Shown: positions 1-6,047 of the stretch, piece after piece
Numbering within the stretch: the first letter of the stretch is position 1
Layout: the number at the start of each line of letters is the position of its first letter
Origin: a virus
DNA length: 14,853 nucleotides
UHGV virus genome: UHGV-0073227
Reading direction: 5' to 3' (one strand)
Notes under the pieces: generated by a model
The model's input: the letters and a program-made list of their open reading frames with translations, nothing else
Told to the model about the DNA's origin: nothing
Database searches by the model: none
Made by a program: the position numbers and the translations under genes

Positions 1-49
1 TTATGTTAACGAAAGGATTGTACAGTAAAGCGCATTTGTTAACGAATCA

Positions 50-733
50 TTAAATGCCGAGTGGGAAAATATCATAGCCTTGTTCTTGCCAACTGGTGAG
101 TTGCTGTTGTTGGGCGGAGGTTCGATTTTCACCGCACCACACCAGCAATGTACGGCCTTCGAACAGTTCAGGGCGTAGTTGATTGAGCGAGTGGGCGAGG
201 ACATCAATGCGCCATCCTTGTTGACTGGCAATCCAGCCCTCCAGCCACAGACGGGTGGTATCGTGAATATTCCAGCCAACCACCAGCGCATCTTTACCCT
301 TTTTTTTACGTGCCGAAGCCAGACAGATGGCGATGTAGTTGATCAGTACGCCGTCGAGGATCGCCAGCAGCGCCTGGAGAGTCGGTTGTTGGCACTGAAG
401 CCGTCGACGCAGAGGAATAAACAAATGCGTGGTGAGCGTCTGGGCGGGGTAATCCTGACCGCGCTCTTTGATCCACGTTCGCAGGCTATGCAGATTGCCG
501 CTTTGCAAGTAAGTCAGTAATGTTTCTTGCTGATCGCGCCAGCCGTTCTGCACATCAACATTTTCATTACTGAGCAGCATTTTAACTTTGCTGACCTGCA
601 CGCCGTTGTCGATCCAGCGTTTGATCTCGCGGATCCGGTCAATATCGGCATCGTTGAACAGCCGATGACCGCCGTCTGTCCGTTGCGGTTTCAGCAATCC
701 GTAACGCCTCTGCCACGCGCGTAACGTGACAGG
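50..733 (-). pseudogene. mlrA: 3' portion of MerR-family regulator MlrA (YehV); 5' end displaced by prophage insertion
   Basis: Translation of ORF 50..697 matches MlrA from the MerR-type motif LLKPQRTDGGHRLFNDADIDRIREIKRWIDNG to the C-terminus (recalled from memory). Upstream in frame the sequence still reads PVTLRAWQRRYG (to about 733), then diverges and hits a stop at 767-769 with no ATG, so the native N-terminal HTH and start codon are missing. Confidence 0.85.
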
Positions 734-771
734 GATTAAGGGTAAACTAACTGATTTTACAAGTTTTTATT
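698..771. other. Prophage-host junction (int-proximal att site) between the mlrA fragment and the integrase stop
   Basis: mlrA homology is lost around 733-740 and the integrase stop codon is at 772-774; the crossover must lie in this interval. The exact core cannot be defined without the other prophage end. Confidence 0.6.
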
Positions 772-2058
772 TTACCCCACTTTCTTATGGGGCATACATG
801 GGACACTTTCAGATAGTCTTTTGTTAAGGAGTTCTATCTGTTCGTGATTGTTGTCTTTCATCCATGCTCCGTAAACATTGAATACCATTTGTGCGTTTGT
901 GTGGCCCATCTGGCTTGCGATAAAACTAGGATTAGCTCCAGCGGCAAGTGACCAGCATGCATAAGTATGCCTGGATTGGTACGATTTTCTGTGTCTCAGA
1001 CCTGCGCGTTTTAAGATACTTGTCCATGACTCCCTGATGGAGTCAACTTTGTAGTGAGGTCCAGACAACTGCTGCTGTTTTATTACCTGAGGGCTAAAAA
1101 CAAAAGTACATTTATGCACAGCAGTTCTCCCATATTCCCTCTGCTTTACCTCTACAGAATGTTGCTTTCCAAGCATGGTCATTTCCGCCTGGCTTTTAAG
1201 AGCATCAATAGCTGGTTGAACCAGATGAATTGTCCTTCCGGTGCCAGCATCGGTTTTTGGTGGAGTGAATTCGCCAAGTTTTGTATAATTTCTACGGATG
1301 GTTATAGTCCTTGCTTTAAGGTCTATATCTTCCCATGCCAGCGATACCAACTCCCCGTGACGAATACCCGTGTATACAGCGAGAATCCACAGGTTTTTTG
1401 TTTGTTGATGACGGCAAGCCTCAATAAAACGAATAAATTCGTCACGGGTGAGAGGATCTGGTTTTACCTTGGACTTTTTTAAGGGAGCCAGACCGTTAAA
1501 TGGGTTTCCTGAGGTATAACCATTATCTGTTGCAAATTGAAACATTCCAGCTATGGTTGTCATATAGTAGTTTACCGTGACCACTGAGCGCCCTTTTATG
1601 GAAGAAGTCTTTCCATTAGAAAGCTTTTGGTAACCGGTCAACAAATCTCTCCTTACGAAAAGTAAATCCTCTTTTGTTATGGATGAAACCAGTTTTTTTT
1701 CACCTAACATTGGTAACATGTTTTTAATTACTGACTGGTAACGGTTAAGTGCATTCGCACAAATCTCAATTTTCTTAAGGTCCAACCATTTTTCCGAAAG
1801 TGCCTTAACGGTTATCTCTCTTTTTCCCAGACCAAAGTGTTTCAGGTTAGGGGAATTAGGGAACTGCGCGGCGTAGTCGAAACTCCCCATTCTGATTGCA
1901 AAACAAACTGAAGTGCGAAGCTCACCAGCGATCTTCCGGTTTTTGGCGGTGTCAGGAACACCGAGGTTTTCTCTGACACGTTTGCCATTATAGTGAAACC
2001 ATATACGGAGTGATCCTCCATGGTTTTCAACGCCTGTCGGGTATGATGCGTTACTCAT
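772..2058 (-). CDS. int: Phage tyrosine integrase (site-specific recombinase)
   Basis: 428-aa ORF with a C-terminal catalytic region typical of tyrosine recombinases (GIRHGELVSLAWEDID ... HRKSYQSRHTYACWSLAAGANPSFIASQMGHTNAQMVFNVYGAW, carrying the R..H..R..Y residues). ATG at 2056-2058 is preceded by GGAGG. It sits next to the att junction. Confidence 0.95.
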   Translation of the reverse strand: MSNASYPTGVENHGGSLRIWFHYNGKRVRENLGVPDTAKNRKIAGELRTSVCFAIRMGSFDYAAQFPNSPNLKHFGLGKREITVKALSEKWLDLKKIEICANALNRYQSVIKNMLPMLGEKKLVSSITKEDLLFVRRDLLTGYQKLSNGKTSSIKGRSVVTVNYYMTTIAGMFQFATDNGYTSGNPFNGLAPLKKSKVKPDPLTRDEFIRFIEACRHQQTKNLWILAVYTGIRHGELVSLAWEDIDLKARTITIRRNYTKLGEFTPPKTDAGTGRTIHLVQPAIDALKSQAEMTMLGKQHSVEVKQREYGRTAVHKCTFVFSPQVIKQQQLSGPHYKVDSIRESWTSILKRAGLRHRKSYQSRHTYACWSLAAGANPSFIASQMGHTNAQMVFNVYGAWMKDNNHEQIELLNKRLSESVPCMPHKKVG

Positions 2059-2389: not shown

Positions 2390-2506
2390 TCAAACATTCG
2401 CTTCACATCTTCTGTACAACACGGTGTTGTTTATGCAGCGAACAATTTTTACCGGGTAACCGGCACTGTCGGTATACAGTTGTCCCTGATTAATCAGAGC
2501 GAACAT
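2390..2506 (-). CDS. Candidate 38-aa small protein (MFALINQGQLYTDSAGYPVKIVRCINNTVLYRRCEANV)
   Basis: Internal ATG of the 79-aa track ORF, preceded by a strong AGGAG with 5-nt spacing. It starts after the stop of the upstream 127-aa gene (2538), avoiding the overlap the full 79-aa ORF would need. Confidence 0.3.
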   Translation of the reverse strand: MFALINQGQLYTDSAGYPVKIVRCINNTVLYRRCEANV

Positions 2507-2537
2507 TTTTTCTCCTGCTCTCTGAATAGTGAGAACT

Positions 2538-2921
2538 TCAGAGCCGTATGTTTGTAGCGGGTTCAATGCTGATAATTTCTGCTGAGATAAGCATCCCGGC
2601 AAGCCAGAGTTCCCCGGACAGGTCTTCATCCTGGCATATCAGTTCGCCAATATTAATGGTGGCCATGATATCCGTTTTCCCTGTGCGCTCATCCAGGACT
2701 TCTTCATAAGGCAGCGTTGCGTACAGGCTTTCAATAGCGCAATTGATAACATCCAGTCCGGTCAGATTGCCGCCGACAGTAACTTCGAATGTTTCGCGGT
2801 ATTCCCATAGTCCGAAAGTTAATCGAACGGTTTGTTTTGCCATGCGTCCGCACGACGTCAGATTCGGGTCATAGTTCATTATTTGCGGTTGAGTATTCTG
2901 GTTGTTCATCTGATTTTCCAT
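2538..2921 (-). CDS. Hypothetical protein (~127 aa) downstream of the SPFH gene
   Basis: ORF 2538..2984 in the track; the track's start is a GTG inside the SPFH C-terminus. The first ATGs after the SPFH stop are at 2921 and 2909, just after a CCCGGC-GGTTT-GCCGGG stem-loop (2925-2941). No strong RBS, so the start is uncertain. No recognisable family. Confidence 0.5.
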   Translation of the reverse strand: MENQMNNQNTQPQIMNYDPNLTSCGRMAKQTVRLTFGLWEYRETFEVTVGGNLTGLDVINCAIESLYATLPYEEVLDERTGKTDIMATINIGELICQDEDLSGELWLAGMLISAEIISIEPATNIRL

Positions 2922-2949
2922 TAACCCGGCGGTTTGCCGGGCGTGTAAG

Positions 2950-3777
2950 TTATTTAATCTGGATAAATGGTGTATTGGCACCACTGGTCATGTATTGCGG
3001 CAGTGTACCGTTCCACTTGTTGATGGCTTCCAGCTCCATGACGCCAGGGTTCTGGCGCAGAGCTTCACCGCGTAAACGAATAGCATCGGCCTCGGCCTGG
3101 GCTTTTGTGCGAATCGCATCTGCCTGTCCGGCAGCTTCCGCGCGCAACATGTTAGCTTCCGCTTCGCGCTGTTTTACTTCCTGTTCGCGTTGCAGGGTTT
3201 TCTGGTTCGCCGTGACTTTGGCATTAATGCTGTCGATAACGGTTGGCGGGTACTCCGGCTTACCCACATATGAGAGACTCATTACCTGAATACCTATGGG
3301 CGTCATTTCTGCCTGAATGTCTTTAAGAGCTGCATCCAGTAGTTCAGACTTCCCGCCGTCGATAAATTTGTCAGTGGTCATTTTGCTGGCCAGTCGATTG
3401 AGTGCGTCGGCGATCTTCTGGCGCAGGTCAGTGTCGGTAATGTCATCCACGCCTTTGCGGTAGGTCTGAAACACCGTGGTAACTTTGGATGGATCAACTT
3501 TGTAGGCAACACCGATGTGATAGCCGATGGTTGTGCCGTCACTCATCTGGAAGCTGAACGGCTCATCGTAGGTCTTCATTTGTTTGAAGGTTGGGAAGAT
3601 GTAAACTTCAGTATTCCAGCCAGTCCAGTAGCGACCAACACCGACCACCTCACCGACGCCTTTATCGTCGCCCGGTTTATTTACTTTGATGCCAACATTA
3701 CCGGGTTCAACGCGATCGCAGCCGACAAGGCCAATGATCGGCAGAACAATGGCTAAAGCAAAAATAATTTTTTTCAT
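2950..3777 (-). CDS. SPFH/band-7 (HflK/HflC/QmcA-like) domain lipoprotein
   Basis: 275-aa ORF. The N-terminus MKKIIFALAIVLPIIGLVGC is a signal peptide ending in an LVGC lipobox. The body has SPFH-type motifs (NVGIKVNKPG, GIQVMSLSYVGKPEYPPTVIDSI) followed by the Ala/Glu/Arg-rich coiled tail (QREAEANMLRAEAAGQADAIRTKAQAEADAIRLRGEA) typical of HflC/HflK-like proteins. RBS AAGGA, 6 nt before the ATG at 3775-3777. Confidence 0.85.
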   Translation of the reverse strand: MKKIIFALAIVLPIIGLVGCDRVEPGNVGIKVNKPGDDKGVGEVVGVGRYWTGWNTEVYIFPTFKQMKTYDEPFSFQMSDGTTIGYHIGVAYKVDPSKVTTVFQTYRKGVDDITDTDLRQKIADALNRLASKMTTDKFIDGGKSELLDAALKDIQAEMTPIGIQVMSLSYVGKPEYPPTVIDSINAKVTANQKTLQREQEVKQREAEANMLRAEAAGQADAIRTKAQAEADAIRLRGEALRQNPGVMELEAINKWNGTLPQYMTSGANTPFIQIK

Positions 3778-3962
3778 TTTTTATCCTTAGTGAAAGAAAG
3801 ACCCTTGTAAATGGCATAAATGCAGGGCGGGGTCAGAAACGCCAGTGCAAAGCCAGAAGTAACTGCTATCGTATCCTTCATGGATATAAGGAACGGAACG
3901 AGTAATCCGTAAATGCATGCGATAATTGCCAGTAAAATTACTATTGTGAAATACAGTCTCAT
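3774..3962 (-). CDS. Small two-pass membrane protein, translationally coupled to the SPFH gene
   Basis: 62-aa ORF with two hydrophobic segments (YFTIVILLAIIACIYGLLVPFLIS and AVTSGFALAFLTPPCIYAIY). Its TGA stop overlaps the SPFH ATG (ATGA overlap at 3774-3777). Weak RBS. Confidence 0.55.
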   Translation of the reverse strand: MRLYFTIVILLAIIACIYGLLVPFLISMKDTIAVTSGFALAFLTPPCIYAIYKGLSFTKDKK

Positions 3963-4114
3963 TGGTATGTGGTATCCCGATATTTTTAACTGACAGACAG
4001 CGCAATAAAGAGAATAATGATTTCTGTTATTGTCAGTACTGTAGCAAGGATTAAAAGCAGTTTTACTCTGCTTAATTCACGGTTGTTTTTCATATAAATG
4101 GTTAGTAAAAAACG

Positions 4115-4131
4115 GAAGAATTATATTCTTC
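4115..4131 (-). terminator. Perfect palindrome GAAGAAT-TAT-ATTCTTC, followed on the minus strand by a T-run; weak terminator or operator
   Basis: 7-bp perfect inverted arms with a 3-bp spacer, 16 nt downstream of the 190-aa gene stop. The minus-strand continuation is CGTTTTTTAC. The stem is AT-rich, so a protein-binding operator is equally plausible. Confidence 0.3.
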
Positions 4132-4146
4132 TTAATATTTAATGTG

Positions 4147-5104: not shown

Positions 5105-5305
5105 TTAACTGGTTAGTTCTTTTTCAGCAGCTGCTTCAGCATAGCAACGTGCAAATTCAAGAACTTCATCACCTGTTCTTTTTATTGCGTCGTTGTCTGA
5201 CATTTGTAATACAACAACTGCGCATAATAAATTATGGATATTGTTTGCAAAGGAATCCGGTGCCAGGCATAAGCCTTCATACTTATCATGGATATTGCCA
5301 GTCAT
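5105..5305 (-). CDS. Hypothetical small protein (66 aa)
   Basis: Internal ATG of the 80-aa track ORF with an AAGGAG RBS; the RBS sits immediately before the stop codon of the upstream tandem-HTH gene (5311-5313), with 5 nt from that stop to this ATG. Confidence 0.6.
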   Translation of the reverse strand: MTGNIHDKYEGLCLAPDSFANNIHNLLCAVVVLQMSDNDAIKRTGDEVLEFARCYAEAAAEKELTS

Positions 5306-5310
5306 TGTTG

Positions 5311-5982
5311 TTACTCCTTTGCTTCTGATTTGCCTGTTAACAACCACATCAGGTCACAATTAAGAGCACTGGCCAGTGGTACTATCTGATCAGCAGGAAC
5401 TTCACAGATGCCGCATTCCCAGTCGTTTATGGGGTCGCTATAGGTATTAATCATGCGGGCAAGATCAGCTTCCGTTAAGCCCAGTTTTTTACGTGCGCTT
5501 TTGATGCGTGCGCCAATACTTTCCACGTAGACTTCAGGCGCATTTACGCGAATAACAGACGCGCTATCTTTTTCATCCAGCAAAGAAAGCGGATCGCACC
5601 CAATGACGTTTGCCAGGGGGATAAGCATGCTGATGGTCGGTTCGAACTCTCCGCTCTCCCATTGCAGGATGATCTCTTCATCGAGATCAAGCAGTTTGGC
5701 AAGTTCGGTGGTCGTCAAGCCGCAGGCTTCACGTTGGGCACGGATTTTTCCAAAAAAGTGACCATGCGAAACCATAGCTTTTGCCTCACATAGTTTTTCT
5801 GCAAAAATTGATGCAGTTTCTTCTGTTTTTTGCAGGGAACGCATCAGGCATCTGATTGCATTATAAACCCTCTCACTTTCTGCTCCGTTTTCTGACATGT
5901 AGGAATAGATCATTCCAAGCAGCGAGCCGCTTTCTTGTATTTGTGCTGCAATTTCATCCATCACCTTAACTGCATGCTTCAT
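5311..5982 (-). CDS. Tandem helix-turn-helix (two XRE-type HTH domains) DNA-binding protein with an N-terminal helical domain
   Basis: ORF 5311..6018; the track's first codon is TTG, while the ATG at 5980-5982 has a perfect AGGAGG RBS. Two HTH_XRE-like segments (GKIRAQREACGLTTTELAKLLDLDEEIILQWESGE and GARIKSARKKLGLTEADLARMINTYSDPINDWECG). First gene downstream of the PL-like promoter. Confidence 0.8.
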   Translation of the reverse strand: MKHAVKVMDEIAAQIQESGSLLGMIYSYMSENGAESERVYNAIRCLMRSLQKTEETASIFAEKLCEAKAMVSHGHFFGKIRAQREACGLTTTELAKLLDLDEEIILQWESGEFEPTISMLIPLANVIGCDPLSLLDEKDSASVIRVNAPEVYVESIGARIKSARKKLGLTEADLARMINTYSDPINDWECGICEVPADQIVPLASALNCDLMWLLTGKSEAKE

Positions 5983-6007
5983 ATGAGCCTCCTGTTGTTT
6001 TAATTTT

Positions 6008-6047
6008 ACAATAGCCAAAGCGTTTGGTTATGTCAATCGCTATAGCT
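6008..6047 (-). promoter_or_regulatory. PL-like leftward promoter with overlapping operator
   Basis: On the minus strand: -35 TTGACA (plus 6031-6036), 17-bp spacer, -10 TATTGT (plus 6008-6013), about 20 nt upstream of the RBS and ATG at 5982. The 13-mer TCAATCGCTATAG (6033-6045) overlaps the -35 and recurs in the cI-cro intergenic region. A palindrome CCAAA-GCG-TTTGG (6015-6027) lies in the spacer. Confidence 0.5.

What the first reader, a model, noticed from the sequence alone, without database searches (positions are those of the whole stretch)
2390..4146. Prophage-encoded SPFH/band-7 lipoprotein operon in the slot normally occupied by recombination and cIII genes
Seen in sequence: a 62-aa two-TM protein whose stop overlaps the start of a 275-aa SPFH-domain lipoprotein (LVGC lipobox), followed by an unrecognised ~127-aa protein and a 38-aa ORF with a strong RBS, all leftward between the early-left genes and xis. 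Established knowledge: host SPFH proteins HflK/HflC complex with the FtsH protease, which degrades lambda CII and CIII and so sets the lysis-lysogeny decision. Inference: a phage-borne SPFH module could act on FtsH (a cIII-like role), work as an envelope superinfection-exclusion or abortive-infection device, or be an undescribed membrane defense system. I do not recognise it as a named system.
Basis: partly seen in the sequence, partly recalled or inferred. Interest (0 to 1): 0.7.

Follow-up and report, generated by a model that had tools for sequence, protein, structure and literature searches.

The report
Phage SPFH lipoprotein with two-helix partner
This E. coli prophage carries a widespread but unstudied two-gene membrane module, a periplasm-facing SPFH (band-7) lipoprotein plus a tiny two-helix partner, that is also found in lytic phages and in some bacterial chromosomes, so it is probably a general inner-membrane scaffold, not a lysogeny switch or a defence system.

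Summary
The 62-aa two-helix protein (3774-3962, -) and the 275-aa SPFH lipoprotein (2950-3777, -) overlap by ATGA. They recur as an adjacent pair in lambdoid, P2-like and P1-like elements, in N4, and in T5-like, jumbo, Pseudomonas, Burkholderia and Stenotrophomonas phages. They also recur in 57 of 80 bacterial species loci, and in Dyella the locus is conserved and non-phage. The small protein defines an unnamed family with a conserved turn, P-x-L-[IV]-S-x-x-[SD]-[TD]. Its divergence tracks that of the SPFH protein (Mantel r 0.88). In 18 of the 150 best family representatives it is fused to the SPFH protein in one chain.

The model has the full cage-forming SPFH architecture (erlin, HflK/C, prohibitin, stomatin). 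The 127-aa protein is DUF5406, which is linked only within close E. coli relatives. The 38-aa ORF is what a 239-bp deletion left of a DUF4222 gene.

I found no defence-system match and no functional study. My best reading is a periplasmic SPFH dome with a two-helix transmembrane partner, expressed early in lytic growth. Presence in virulent phages and host chromosomes argues against a cIII-like or defence-specific role. It is a new variant of a known kind, of moderate interest.

The parts
3774..3962 (-). Gene for the 62-aa two-helix inner-membrane partner. It belongs to an unnamed family (PHROG 1130, 'membrane protein'). Predicted topology is N-in/C-in, with a basic C-terminal tail.
   Evidence: ORF. 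Two hydrophobic segments. phrog_1130 at E 7e-23, with no Pfam, NCBIfam or PADLOC match. A homologue lies directly upstream of the SPFH gene in N4 (gp19), RCS47, PHA46, Pacha_bin_1, phiE125 (gp44), Piffle and a P2-like prophage. It is present in 79/80, 9/15 and 57/80 loci of the three sets.
3870..3896 (-). Codons for the conserved turn between the two helices (P23-F-L-I-S-M-K-D-T31). The family motif is P-x-L-[IV]-S-x-x-[SD]-[TD].
   Evidence: P23 is invariant in alignment A1. Over 85 distinct family members the counts are P 82, L 77, I/V 78, S 70, and a following G 71.
2950..3777 (-). Gene for the 275-aa SPFH/band-7 lipoprotein (PHROG 200, 'lipoprotein').
   Evidence: Band_7 at E 4e-30 and phrog_200 at E 3e-114. 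AlphaFold2 model with pLDDT 81.5: anchor helix, SPFH1 strands 19-94, SPFH2 96-175, a 65-residue helix 178-242, helix 244-254 and a flexible tail. Foldseek hits to erlin1/2, HflK/C, prohibitin, stomatin, flotillin, QmcA and major vault protein, E 6e-13 to 1e-7.
3718..3777 (-). Signal peptide with lipobox L17-V-G-C20 (nt 3718-3729), followed by Asp at +2.
   Evidence: Sequence. The Cys is invariant in A2. A lipobox is present in most homologues from Proteobacteria, Leptospira and Bacteroidota.
3774..3788 (-). Translational coupling region: AAGGA (3784-3788) lies inside the end of the small gene, and its TGA stop overlaps the SPFH ATG (ATGA, 3774-3777).
   Evidence: Sequence. The same overlap or near-abutment (-20 to +18 nt) occurs in almost all homologous pairs; the T5-like phage R7, at 140 nt, is the clear exception.
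2924..2942 (-). GC-rich hairpin just after the SPFH stop codon (7-bp stem, 5-nt loop, no U tract). It marks the 3' edge of the two-gene cassette.
   Evidence: RNA fold -14.1 kcal/mol, z -2.8, 0 of 200 shuffles as stable. The terminator scan did not call it.
2538..2921 (-). DUF5406 gene (123-127 aa). It is a neighbour, not part of the conserved module.
   Evidence: PF17400 at 79.8 bits and phrog_3409. Present in 67/80 close loci, 0/80 diverse species loci and 1/15 phage genomes. No solved relative and no paper.
2390..2506 (-). Truncated DUF4222 gene (38 codons). It is a pseudogene remnant, not part of the module.
   Evidence: PF13973 match to profile positions 2-31 of 53. Full 80-aa versions occur in phiP27 and most relatives. 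239-bp deletion with junction at 2408/2407. RefSeq marks it 'missing C-terminus'.

Best explanation
The functional unit is two genes, not four: the 62-aa two-helix inner-membrane protein and the SPFH lipoprotein, made together by translational coupling.

Inferred architecture. The SPFH protein is exported, lipid-anchored to the periplasmic face of the inner membrane, and oligomerises into the ring or dome typical of SPFH proteins. The small protein is a hairpin with both ends in the cytoplasm and a conserved periplasmic turn that meets the membrane-proximal SPFH1 domain. It supplies the transmembrane part that a lipid anchor alone lacks. Together they fence off a patch of inner membrane.

Inferred role. 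The module is an ancient cellular membrane-scaffold cassette that phages of many kinds have picked up and place in early (pre-lysis) gene blocks. In this prophage it lies at the distal end of the leftward early operon, next to xis. I commit to this as its most likely effect during infection: it keeps the inner membrane of the infected cell organised and functional, or confines some inner-membrane client, until programmed lysis. I do not think it sets the lysis-lysogeny decision or excludes other phages.

What is shown and what is inferred. Shown: gene structure, family membership, fold, conserved pairing, fusions and distribution. Inferred: lipidation, topology, oligomeric cage, expression timing and physiological effect. 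The 0.55 below is a blend of these sub-estimates:
- About 0.85 that the pair is a co-functioning two-protein SPFH membrane module.
- About 0.5 for the dome-plus-transmembrane-partner architecture.
- About 0.35 for the general membrane-maintenance role.
For: Pairing:
- The ATGA overlap and internal RBS.
- The same small-protein family lies immediately upstream, on the same strand, in 79/80 close loci, 9/15 diverse phage genomes and 57/80 bacterial species loci, with one hit per locus.
- No third gene is conserved with the pair.
- Divergence of the two proteins is correlated: Mantel r 0.88, p 0.001, 102 distinct pairs.

Fusions:
- 18 of the 150 best 50%-identity representatives hold both domains in one chain. 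17 of these have the order 2TM, linker, third hydrophobic segment, SPFH, and at least 12 keep a recognisable lipobox.
- Further fusions are P0003, seen in two independent samples, and L124.
- This order fixes the topology: hairpin ends inside, SPFH outside.

Fold:
- The model has all elements of cage-forming SPFH proteins.
- Its best structural matches are the ring or cage subunits of erlin, HflK/C, prohibitin, stomatin, flotillin and QmcA-YbbJ.

Lipoprotein:
- The lipobox Cys is invariant.

Distribution:
- 747 phage records, including virulent N4, T5-like, jumbo and Kayvirus phages.
- P2-like, lambdoid and P1-like elements.
- 535 of 5426 complete E. coli genomes.
- A syntenic non-phage locus in Dyella.

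Position:
- The pair sits in early gene blocks: after the RNAP2 genes in N4, in the left early operon here and in phiP27, and between the cox-like gene and gene A in the P2-like prophage.
Against: - No experiment bears on this family. Lipidation, localisation, oligomerisation and contact between the two proteins are all inferred.
- The single-chain model of the natural fusion gave only low confidence (pLDDT 50-70) for the two-helix part and no usable contact information.
- Some homologues lack the partner: an E. coli/Shigella variant (L097, L098), a Bacteroidota subgroup, phiCbK and Panisse. Gram-positive and archaeal viruses use an N-terminal helix instead. So the partner is not obligatory for every SPFH of this clade.
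- Correlated divergence partly reflects shared genome phylogeny.
- Early expression is read from gene position only. An own promoter active in the lysogen cannot be excluded, although the scan found none in the AT-rich spacer upstream.
- 'Membrane maintenance' is a broad claim that the data permit rather than demonstrate.
Confidence: 0.55

Rival explanations
1. HflK/C mimic acting on FtsH. The periplasmic SPFH dome captures the periplasmic domain of the host FtsH protease, or co-assembles with and disturbs HflK/C. This would change the turnover of CII/CIII or other FtsH substrates.
For: - HflK/C are among the best structural matches, including the FtsH-HflK/C complexes 7wi3 and 9cz2.
- They are the only solved proteins found by sequence, at E 1e-3, and the only NCBIfam hits.
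- By its signal peptide the phage protein faces the periplasm, the same side as HflK/C (established knowledge for HflK/C).
- Several authors have voiced the idea for phage SPFH genes without testing it (PMC4936722; PMC8540360).
Against: - Scores against the HflK/HflC models are far below cut-off: 22.5 against 159.4, and 24.9 against 134.4.
- Erlin, prohibitin and stomatin match equally well.
- The pair is carried by virulent phages that make no lysogeny decision, and by Dyella chromosomes next to their own unrelated genes.
- It has its own conserved, often fused partner. That points to a self-contained assembly more than to a hijacker of a host complex.
Confidence: 0.15
2. Envelope superinfection exclusion or abortive-infection device. 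The inner-membrane hairpin plus periplasmic lipoprotein blocks DNA entry of incoming phages (compare T4 Imm/Sp, T5 Llp, P22 SieA), or triggers membrane collapse on infection.
For: - Accessory position in the prophage, envelope location, lipoprotein nature and small membrane partner.
- PHROG files the small protein under 'moron, auxiliary metabolic gene and host takeover'.
- Neighbouring accessory genes in relatives include Ea22-like and Tad2-like genes.
- The listed precedents are from established knowledge and from papers listed.
Against: - None of the proteins matches any PADLOC model.
- The family is conserved from E. coli to Leptospira and Bacteroidota, and its divergence is slow compared with the partner's. 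Exclusion proteins, by contrast, are typically narrow and fast-changing (my knowledge).
- The pair is a syntenic core locus in Dyella.
- It occurs in phages with very different entry machines.
- In the P2-like prophage it lies in the early operon, not at the known P2 defence hotspots (plus my knowledge of those hotspots).
Confidence: 0.15
3. Lysogenic-conversion or virulence factor. The prophage lipoprotein is made in the lysogen, reaches the surface or vesicles, and acts on the animal host.
For: - A prophage-borne HflK/C-like protein of Pasteurella multocida (PM0222) was reported to be secreted in outer-membrane vesicles, to activate TLR1/2 signalling and to contribute to virulence in mice (PMC9872710).
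- Many carriers here are Shiga-toxin-producing E. coli.
Against: - It is present in virulent phages of environmental and plant bacteria and in soil bacterial chromosomes.
- Asp at +2 predicts retention in the inner membrane of E. coli (the +2 sorting rule, established knowledge).
- I did not test whether PM0222 belongs to this subfamily.
Confidence: 0.05
4. Lysis-timing control. The small hairpin protein is holin- or antiholin-like, and the SPFH dome confines it.
For: - The small protein has the size, two-helix N-in/C-in layout and basic tail of class II holins (plus my knowledge).
- In Staphylococcus Kayviruses the SPFH gene (mbpS), preceded by a holin-like small membrane gene (mbpV), lies between the endolysin and the Tgl lytic enzyme. 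The authors suggested it helps Tgl export (PMC7150955).
Against: - In this prophage, phiP27, N4, the P2-like and the P1-like elements the pair is far from the lysis cassette.
- There is no match to holin families.
- A chromosomal core copy in Dyella is hard to reconcile with a lysis function.
Confidence: 0.08

Closest known systems
SPFH-NfeD operons (E. coli QmcA-YbbJ, PDB 8z5g; B. subtilis FloT/FloA with NfeD proteins; Pyrococcus stomatin PH1511-PH1510)
   Same: An SPFH scaffold gene is paired in one operon with a gene for a small membrane protein. The two products are thought to assemble together. The fold of the SPFH subunit matches (QmcA at E 1e-7).
   Different: - The partner here is only 62 aa: two helices and a short turn. 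It has no NfeD/OB-fold domain and no Pfam match.
- The SPFH protein is lipid-anchored and predicted to face the periplasm.
- The published surveys I consulted describe conserved operons only with NfeD. They do not mention phages or lipoproteins (PMC2636767).
HflK/HflC-FtsH complex of E. coli
   Same: A periplasm-facing SPFH cage on the inner membrane. It is the best sequence-level relative among solved structures and a top fold match.
   Different: - There is one SPFH gene here, not a K/C pair.
- Scores are far below the HflK/HflC model cut-offs.
- The anchor is a lipid plus a separate hairpin protein instead of an N-terminal helix.
- There is no evidence for FtsH binding.
Phage N4 gp19-gp20 and PHROG families 1130 + 200
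   Same: The same two families in the same order, with overlapping stop and start. gp20 is 61% identical to the window protein, and gp19 is 37% identical to the 62-aa protein. These are true homologues.
   Different: N4 is a virulent podovirus, and its pair sits among early/middle genes after the RNA polymerase II genes. Neither N4 gene has a described function in the literature I could search.
Eukaryotic and organellar SPFH cages (erlin1/2, prohibitin, stomatin, flotillin)
   Same: The same domain order, and they are the best structural matches, at E about 1e-12.
   Different: Only 14-18% identity, different anchors and different compartments. Similarity is at the superfamily level only.
Staphylococcus Kayvirus MbpV-MbpS
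   Same: A small single-helix membrane protein gene directly precedes an SPFH gene in a virulent phage.
   Different: About 26% identity. The anchor is an N-terminal helix, not a lipobox. The small protein is not in the two-helix family. The pair sits inside the lysis region.

Membership tests
SPFH / band-7 superfamily (Pfam PF01145) | SPFH domain scoring above the curated threshold | tested here: met
   105.6 bits against a cut-off of 23.6, E 4e-30, residues 22-208.
SPFH / band-7 superfamily (Pfam PF01145) | Domain order of the cage-forming members: membrane anchor, SPFH1, SPFH2, long coiled-coil helix, short helix, C-terminal tail | tested here: met
   AlphaFold2 model elements. Full-length Foldseek matches to erlin, HflK/C, prohibitin and stomatin subunits.
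SPFH / band-7 superfamily (Pfam PF01145) | Assembly into a multimeric ring or dome on a membrane | not testable with these tools
   Only single chains can be modelled here. This needs multimer prediction or cryo-EM.
HflK / HflC (NCBIfam TIGR01933 / TIGR01932) | Score above the equivalog cut-off | tested here: not met
   HflC 24.9 bits against 134.4, and HflK 22.5 against 159.4.
HflK / HflC (NCBIfam TIGR01933 / TIGR01932) | Two paralogous SPFH genes side by side | tested here: not met
   There is a single SPFH gene in the window and in all related loci.
HflK / HflC (NCBIfam TIGR01933 / TIGR01932) | Binding and modulation of FtsH | not testable with these tools
   This needs pull-down or substrate half-life measurements.
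SPFH-NfeD operon | The partner carries an NfeD (OB-fold) domain | tested here: not met
   The 62-aa protein matches no Pfam family at E up to 0.1 and no NCBIfam model. It is too short to hold a soluble domain.
SPFH-NfeD operon | A small membrane-protein gene is adjacent and co-transcribed with the SPFH gene, and conserved across lineages | tested here: met
   Adjacent in 79/80, 9/15 and 57/80 loci. ATGA overlap. Fusions.
Bacterial lipoprotein | Signal peptide ending in a lipobox [LVI][ASTVI][GAS]C | tested here: met
   K2-K3, a hydrophobic core, then L-V-G-C20. The Cys is invariant in 11 diverse homologues, and a lipobox is seen in most relatives.
Bacterial lipoprotein | Lipidation and cleavage by Lgt/LspA, and membrane of residence | not testable with these tools
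   Asp at +2 predicts inner-membrane retention in E. coli (established +2 rule). Not measured.
Known anti-phage defence systems (PADLOC-DB 2.0) | A match of any component to a defence-system model | tested here: not met
   0 families for the 62-aa, SPFH, DUF5406, DUF4222-remnant, 35-aa, 190-aa and 60-aa proteins at E up to 0.1.
Lambda CIII-type FtsH inhibitor | Homology to CIII | tested here: not met
   The Pfam scan of all ORFs of the region returned no CIII family.
Class II holin / pinholin | Small two-helix protein encoded in the lysis cassette next to an endolysin, with homology to a holin family | tested here: not met
   The two-helix layout is present. But the gene lies in the early-left operon, and it matches only phrog_1130, 'membrane protein'.

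The most novel reading that the evidence does not exclude
The pair defines a so-far undescribed class of SPFH operon: a periplasmic lipoprotein dome plus a dedicated two-helix transmembrane partner, sometimes made as one precursor with an internal lipobox. Phages of all morphotypes deploy it early in infection to take control of a patch of inner membrane. For example, it could sequester FtsH or another host membrane protein, or shield the membrane from premature holin action or from pore-forming abortive-infection effectors. That would make it a general phage 'membrane takeover' device, and a compact genetic handle on what bacterial SPFH cages do.
Probability: 0.25. Interest if true: 0.7.

Novelty: new variant of a known kind. 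Interest (0 to 1): 0.45.

Why it matters
What SPFH proteins do in bacteria is still largely unknown outside HflK/C-FtsH. This is a minimal, self-contained two-gene version. It occurs in about 1.5% of sequenced phage records (747 of 50,697) and about 10% of complete E. coli genomes (535 of 5426), and it is present in easily manipulated phages (N4, lambdoid, P1-like).

If the two-helix protein is the transmembrane half of a periplasmic SPFH dome, the system offers a simple model for how such cages are anchored and what they enclose. It could also reveal a common early step in phage infection, the management of the host inner membrane.

At the practical level, several database names for this gene should be corrected: 'serine protease', 'transposase fusion protein' and 'high frequency of lysogenization C protein'. 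The small partner gene is often left unannotated.

Tried and rejected
- PADLOC scan of all proteins in the region: no defence match apart from generic HTH hits for the 235-aa regulator.
- Pfam and NCBIfam for the 62-aa protein: nothing.
- PDB sequence search for DUF5406: nothing at E up to 1. Paper search for DUF5406: 0 papers.
- First viral-contig scan with the single protein: returned only 97-100% identical loci. These were useful for DUF5406/DUF4222 linkage but not for diversity. Diversity came from annotated phage records and the species-level genome scan.
- A block alignment meant to give both halves of the natural fusion P0003 a deep alignment failed. MAFFT aligned distant small proteins onto the SPFH signal peptide (A4). 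I used a cleaner but shallow alignment (A5).
- The resulting model of the fusion shows three helices followed by SPFH, but with pLDDT 50-70 in the two-helix part. It says nothing reliable about contacts.
- Promoter and terminator scans: promoter-like sites were no more frequent than in shuffles, and none sits convincingly in front of the cassette. The hairpin after the SPFH gene lacks a U tract. So I cannot say whether the cassette is an autonomous 'moron'.
- Nine literature searches found annotations and speculation, but no experiment on this phage SPFH family.
- Considered and rejected: a four-gene operon as the unit; membership in HflK/HflC; protease activity, since no protease domain was found.
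Full report
**Where the window comes from**

The region is 99.4% identical to a prophage of E. coli MDP9-27 that is integrated next to mlrA (yehV). The gene order there runs leftward:
- repressor
- helix-turn-helix regulator
- three small or unknown genes
- a hypothetical 62-aa protein
- the SPFH protein
- DUF5406
- a DUF4222 pseudogene
- xis
- int

The early-left region is the same as in the Stx2e phage phiP27, whose SPFH protein is 98.5% identical.

**Checking the observation**

All four ORFs are present on the minus strand.

The 62-aa ORF (3774-3962) has two hydrophobic segments. Its TGA overlaps the ATG of the 275-aa ORF (2950-3777) in the sequence ATGA. An AAGGA lies 6 nt upstream of that ATG.

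The 275-aa protein matches Pfam Band_7 at 105.6 bits. It starts with a typical lipoprotein signal peptide ending in L-V-G-C20, with Asp at +2. The cysteine is invariant in eleven diverse phage homologues.

The '127-aa' protein is DUF5406. RefSeq starts it four codons later.

The 38-aa ORF has a strong AGGAG, but it is the front third of a DUF4222 gene. In phiP27 and most relatives the protein is 80 aa. A pairwise alignment shows a 239-bp deletion, with the junction at window 2408/2407. RefSeq flags it as a pseudogene.

**What the unit is**

Homologues of the SPFH protein occur in 747 of 50,697 phage records. They include Escherichia, Salmonella, Klebsiella, Erwinia, Pseudomonas, Burkholderia, Caulobacter, Staphylococcus, Enterococcus, Bacillus and Halorubrum viruses.

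I inspected fifteen diverse phage genomes. In nine of them, a small ORF of the same family as the 62-aa protein lies directly upstream on the same strand. Usually it overlaps or abuts the SPFH start. The nine are:
- phiP27
- N4 (gp19-gp20)
- the P1-like RCS47
- jumbo phage PHA46
- a T5-like Salmonella phage
- Pseudomonas phages Pacha_bin_1 and PaP4
- Burkholderia phiE125 (gp44-gp43)
- Stenotrophomonas Piffle

A P2-like E. coli prophage has the pair too.

A scan of one genome per bacterial species returned 80 loci, from Enterobacterales, Xanthomonadales, Pseudomonas, Sutterella, Leptospira, Caulobacterales, Bacteroidota and others. A profile built from the small proteins finds exactly one hit per locus. 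It lies immediately upstream of the SPFH gene in 57 of the 80.

The loci without the small gene fall into a few groups:
- a Bacteroidota subgroup
- a sphingomonad subgroup with an N-terminal helix instead of a lipobox
- one E. coli/Shigella variant
- fused forms

No other gene travels with the pair. DUF5406 accompanies it in 67 of 80 near-identical E. coli loci, in none of the 80 species loci, and in only one of fifteen phage genomes, phiP27. So the conserved module has two genes.

**The small protein family**

It has no Pfam, NCBIfam or PADLOC match. In PHROGs it is family 1130, 'membrane protein'. In the large protein collection every relative is 'hypothetical' or similar, apart from a few evident annotation artefacts.

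Across 85 distinct members, the end of helix 1, the turn and the start of helix 2 are conserved as P-x-L-[IV]-S-x-x-[SD]-[TD]-h-A-V-h-x-G. The counts are P 82, L 77, I/V 78, S 70 and G 71.

Divergence of the small protein and of its SPFH neighbour is strongly correlated: Mantel r 0.88, p 0.001, 102 distinct pairs. They are therefore inherited as a unit.

The strongest evidence for a joint function is gene fusion. I took the 150 best representatives, each standing for one 50%-identity cluster, from a search of 1.84 billion proteins. Eighteen of them hold the small-protein domain and the SPFH domain in one chain.

Seventeen of the fusions have this order: two helices, a basic linker, a third hydrophobic segment, then SPFH. 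At least twelve of them keep a recognisable lipobox in that third segment. One has the reverse order.

Two more fusions turned up independently:
- P0003, from a P1-like 94-kb contig and from a separate sequencing run.
- L124, from a metagenome-assembled genome.

The fused order fixes the topology. Both ends of the hairpin are cytoplasmic, the conserved turn is periplasmic, and the SPFH domain is outside. That is what the signal peptide of the separate protein predicts.

**Fold**

The AlphaFold2 model of the window protein has mean pLDDT 81.5. It shows an anchor helix, a beta-rich SPFH1 (19-94), an alpha/beta SPFH2 (96-175), a 65-residue helix (178-242), a short helix (244-254) and a low-confidence tail.

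Foldseek against the PDB returns full-length matches to the subunits of erlin1/2, HflK and HflC, prohibitin, stomatin, flotillin, QmcA (from the QmcA-YbbJ complex) and major vault protein. E-values run from 6e-13 to 1e-7, at 14-18% identity. All of these form rings or cages.

By sequence, only HflK (E 1e-3) and a prohibitin fragment are detectable among solved structures. The HflK/HflC family models score far below their cut-offs. The protein is therefore a member of the SPFH superfamily but not of the HflK/C family.

**Not only a phage gene**

In about a dozen Dyella and related species, the pair lies in a conserved chromosomal locus. It sits between a BlaI/BlaR1-like regulator-sensor pair and the ribonucleotide reductase genes nrdAB. 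Second copies in some of the same genomes sit in variable contexts; I read these as prophage-like from their unique flanks, many short ORFs and a DNA methylase/SNF2 gene, without scanning for phage hallmark genes. The module is thus a cellular gene pair that phages have acquired.

In E. coli it is common. 535 of 5426 complete genomes have a nucleotide-level match, and 198 of the matching places are on plasmids of about 92-100 kb.

**Literature**

Phage SPFH genes have been noted repeatedly:
- phiE125 annotation
- T4-like phages (PMC1524935)
- Bruynogheviruses (PMC8540360)
- a Pseudomonas satellite (PMC4936722)
- Kayvirus MbpS (PMC7150955)

The one experimental report concerns a prophage HflK/C-like protein of Pasteurella, described as a virulence factor (PMC9872710). 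I did not test whether it belongs to this subfamily.

The survey of prokaryotic SPFH subfamilies describes conserved operons only with NfeD. It calls subfamilies 6-12 undocumented and does not mention phages or lipoproteins (PMC2636767). I found no description of the two-helix partner family. The library searched does not cover most subscription journals, so absence there is not proof.

**How it most likely works**

Translational coupling, co-divergence and frequent fusion say that the two proteins act together, probably in fixed proportion.

A lipid-anchored SPFH protein has no transmembrane segment of its own. In HflK/C and other SPFH cages, the N-terminal helices form the membrane-embedded rim (established from the solved complexes listed). 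I therefore infer that the two-helix protein supplies that rim and the lipoprotein supplies the periplasmic dome. The conserved periplasmic turn would be the contact point with SPFH1.

On timing, the pair always sits among early or accessory genes rather than structural or lysis genes in the Gram-negative phages I examined. This suggests expression before lysis, but no transcript data were available.

On the effect, the pair is present in virulent phages of every tail type and is a core gene in some bacteria. That fits a general membrane-organising or membrane-protecting role better than a lysogeny switch or an exclusion device. I put about 0.35 on that reading. FtsH capture gets 0.15, exclusion or defence 0.15, lysis-timing control 0.08 and a virulence factor 0.05. 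The rest is unassigned.

**Verdict**

Its specific proposals are weakened, and the proposed four-gene unit is not supported.

The gene itself is already widely annotated. What appears new is the conserved, often fused, two-helix partner and the breadth of the pair across phages and bacteria. I rate this a new variant of a known kind, with moderate interest.

Noticed in passing
window 3986-4093 (-): A 35-aa ORF with a single hydrophobic helix lies in the AT-rich (30% GC) spacer just upstream of the 62-aa gene. It keeps its length and hydrophobic core in 51 related loci, with 15 protein variants. It is absent outside the close E. coli/phiP27 group and has no obvious Shine-Dalgarno sequence.
   Followed up: partly
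window 2407/2408; L003 5371-5609: A 239-bp deletion relative to phiP27 removes the C-terminal two-thirds of the DUF4222 gene and the start of a following 48-aa ORF. The truncated form recurs in a subset of related prophages, in at least 14 of 81 loci.
   Followed up: yes
window 1-2058: The prophage integrase (772-2058) abuts mlrA (yehV) at about 50-736, which is a classical integration site of Stx-converting phages. The window therefore starts in host DNA, and attL lies between about 700 and 770.
   Followed up: partly
L003 4001-4828 (phiP27 L05); P0081, P0089, P0121; L094 2450-3274: Misleading names have spread for this family without any supporting domain: 'putative serine protease' (from phiP27), 'transposase fusion protein' (Pseudomonas PaP4 group) and 'high frequency of lysogenization C protein'. 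The small partner gene is unannotated in phiP27 and RCS47.
   Followed up: yes
P0265-P0408; L124 4743-5957: The fused forms keep a lipobox cysteine after the third hydrophobic segment. The precursor could therefore be lipidated and cut by signal peptidase II into a three-helix fragment and a mature lipoprotein. An internal lipobox in a polytopic precursor would be unusual.
   Followed up: no
L123 2075-9963 and other Dyella loci: In Dyella the pair is a syntenic chromosomal locus flanked by BlaI/BlaR1-like genes (Penicillinase_R, Peptidase_M56) and nrdAB. Some species have a second copy in a variable context that looks prophage-like (for example L125).
   Followed up: partly
L090 2495-4887 (phiCbK): The phiCbK SPFH lipoprotein gene lies two genes from an RtcB-like RNA ligase gene. 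A 2026 paper places the P. aeruginosa SPFH protein PaFlo8 inside the rtcA/rtcB/rtcR locus. This may be coincidence.
   Followed up: no
L177 4729-5304: In the P1-like contig that carries the fused SPFH gene, a Tad2-like gene (a family of anti-Thoeris proteins) lies about 700 nt downstream. This points to an accessory, counter-defence neighbourhood.
   Followed up: no
window 5105-6018 (-): An 80-aa ORF (5105-5347; RefSeq aa) overlaps the 3' end of a 235-aa protein with two helix-turn-helix domains (5311-6018). That protein matches PHROG 'CII-like regulator' and lies on the leftward strand next to the repressor gene. No N-like antiterminator was recognised in the left operon.
   Followed up: no
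window 2924-2942 (-): A stable GC-rich hairpin (-14.1 kcal/mol) sits between the SPFH stop and the DUF5406 start. It has no U tract, so its role (transcript end, RNA stabiliser or recombination scar) is open. The SPFH gene is also richer in GC (50.5%) than its neighbours (30-47%).
   Followed up: partly
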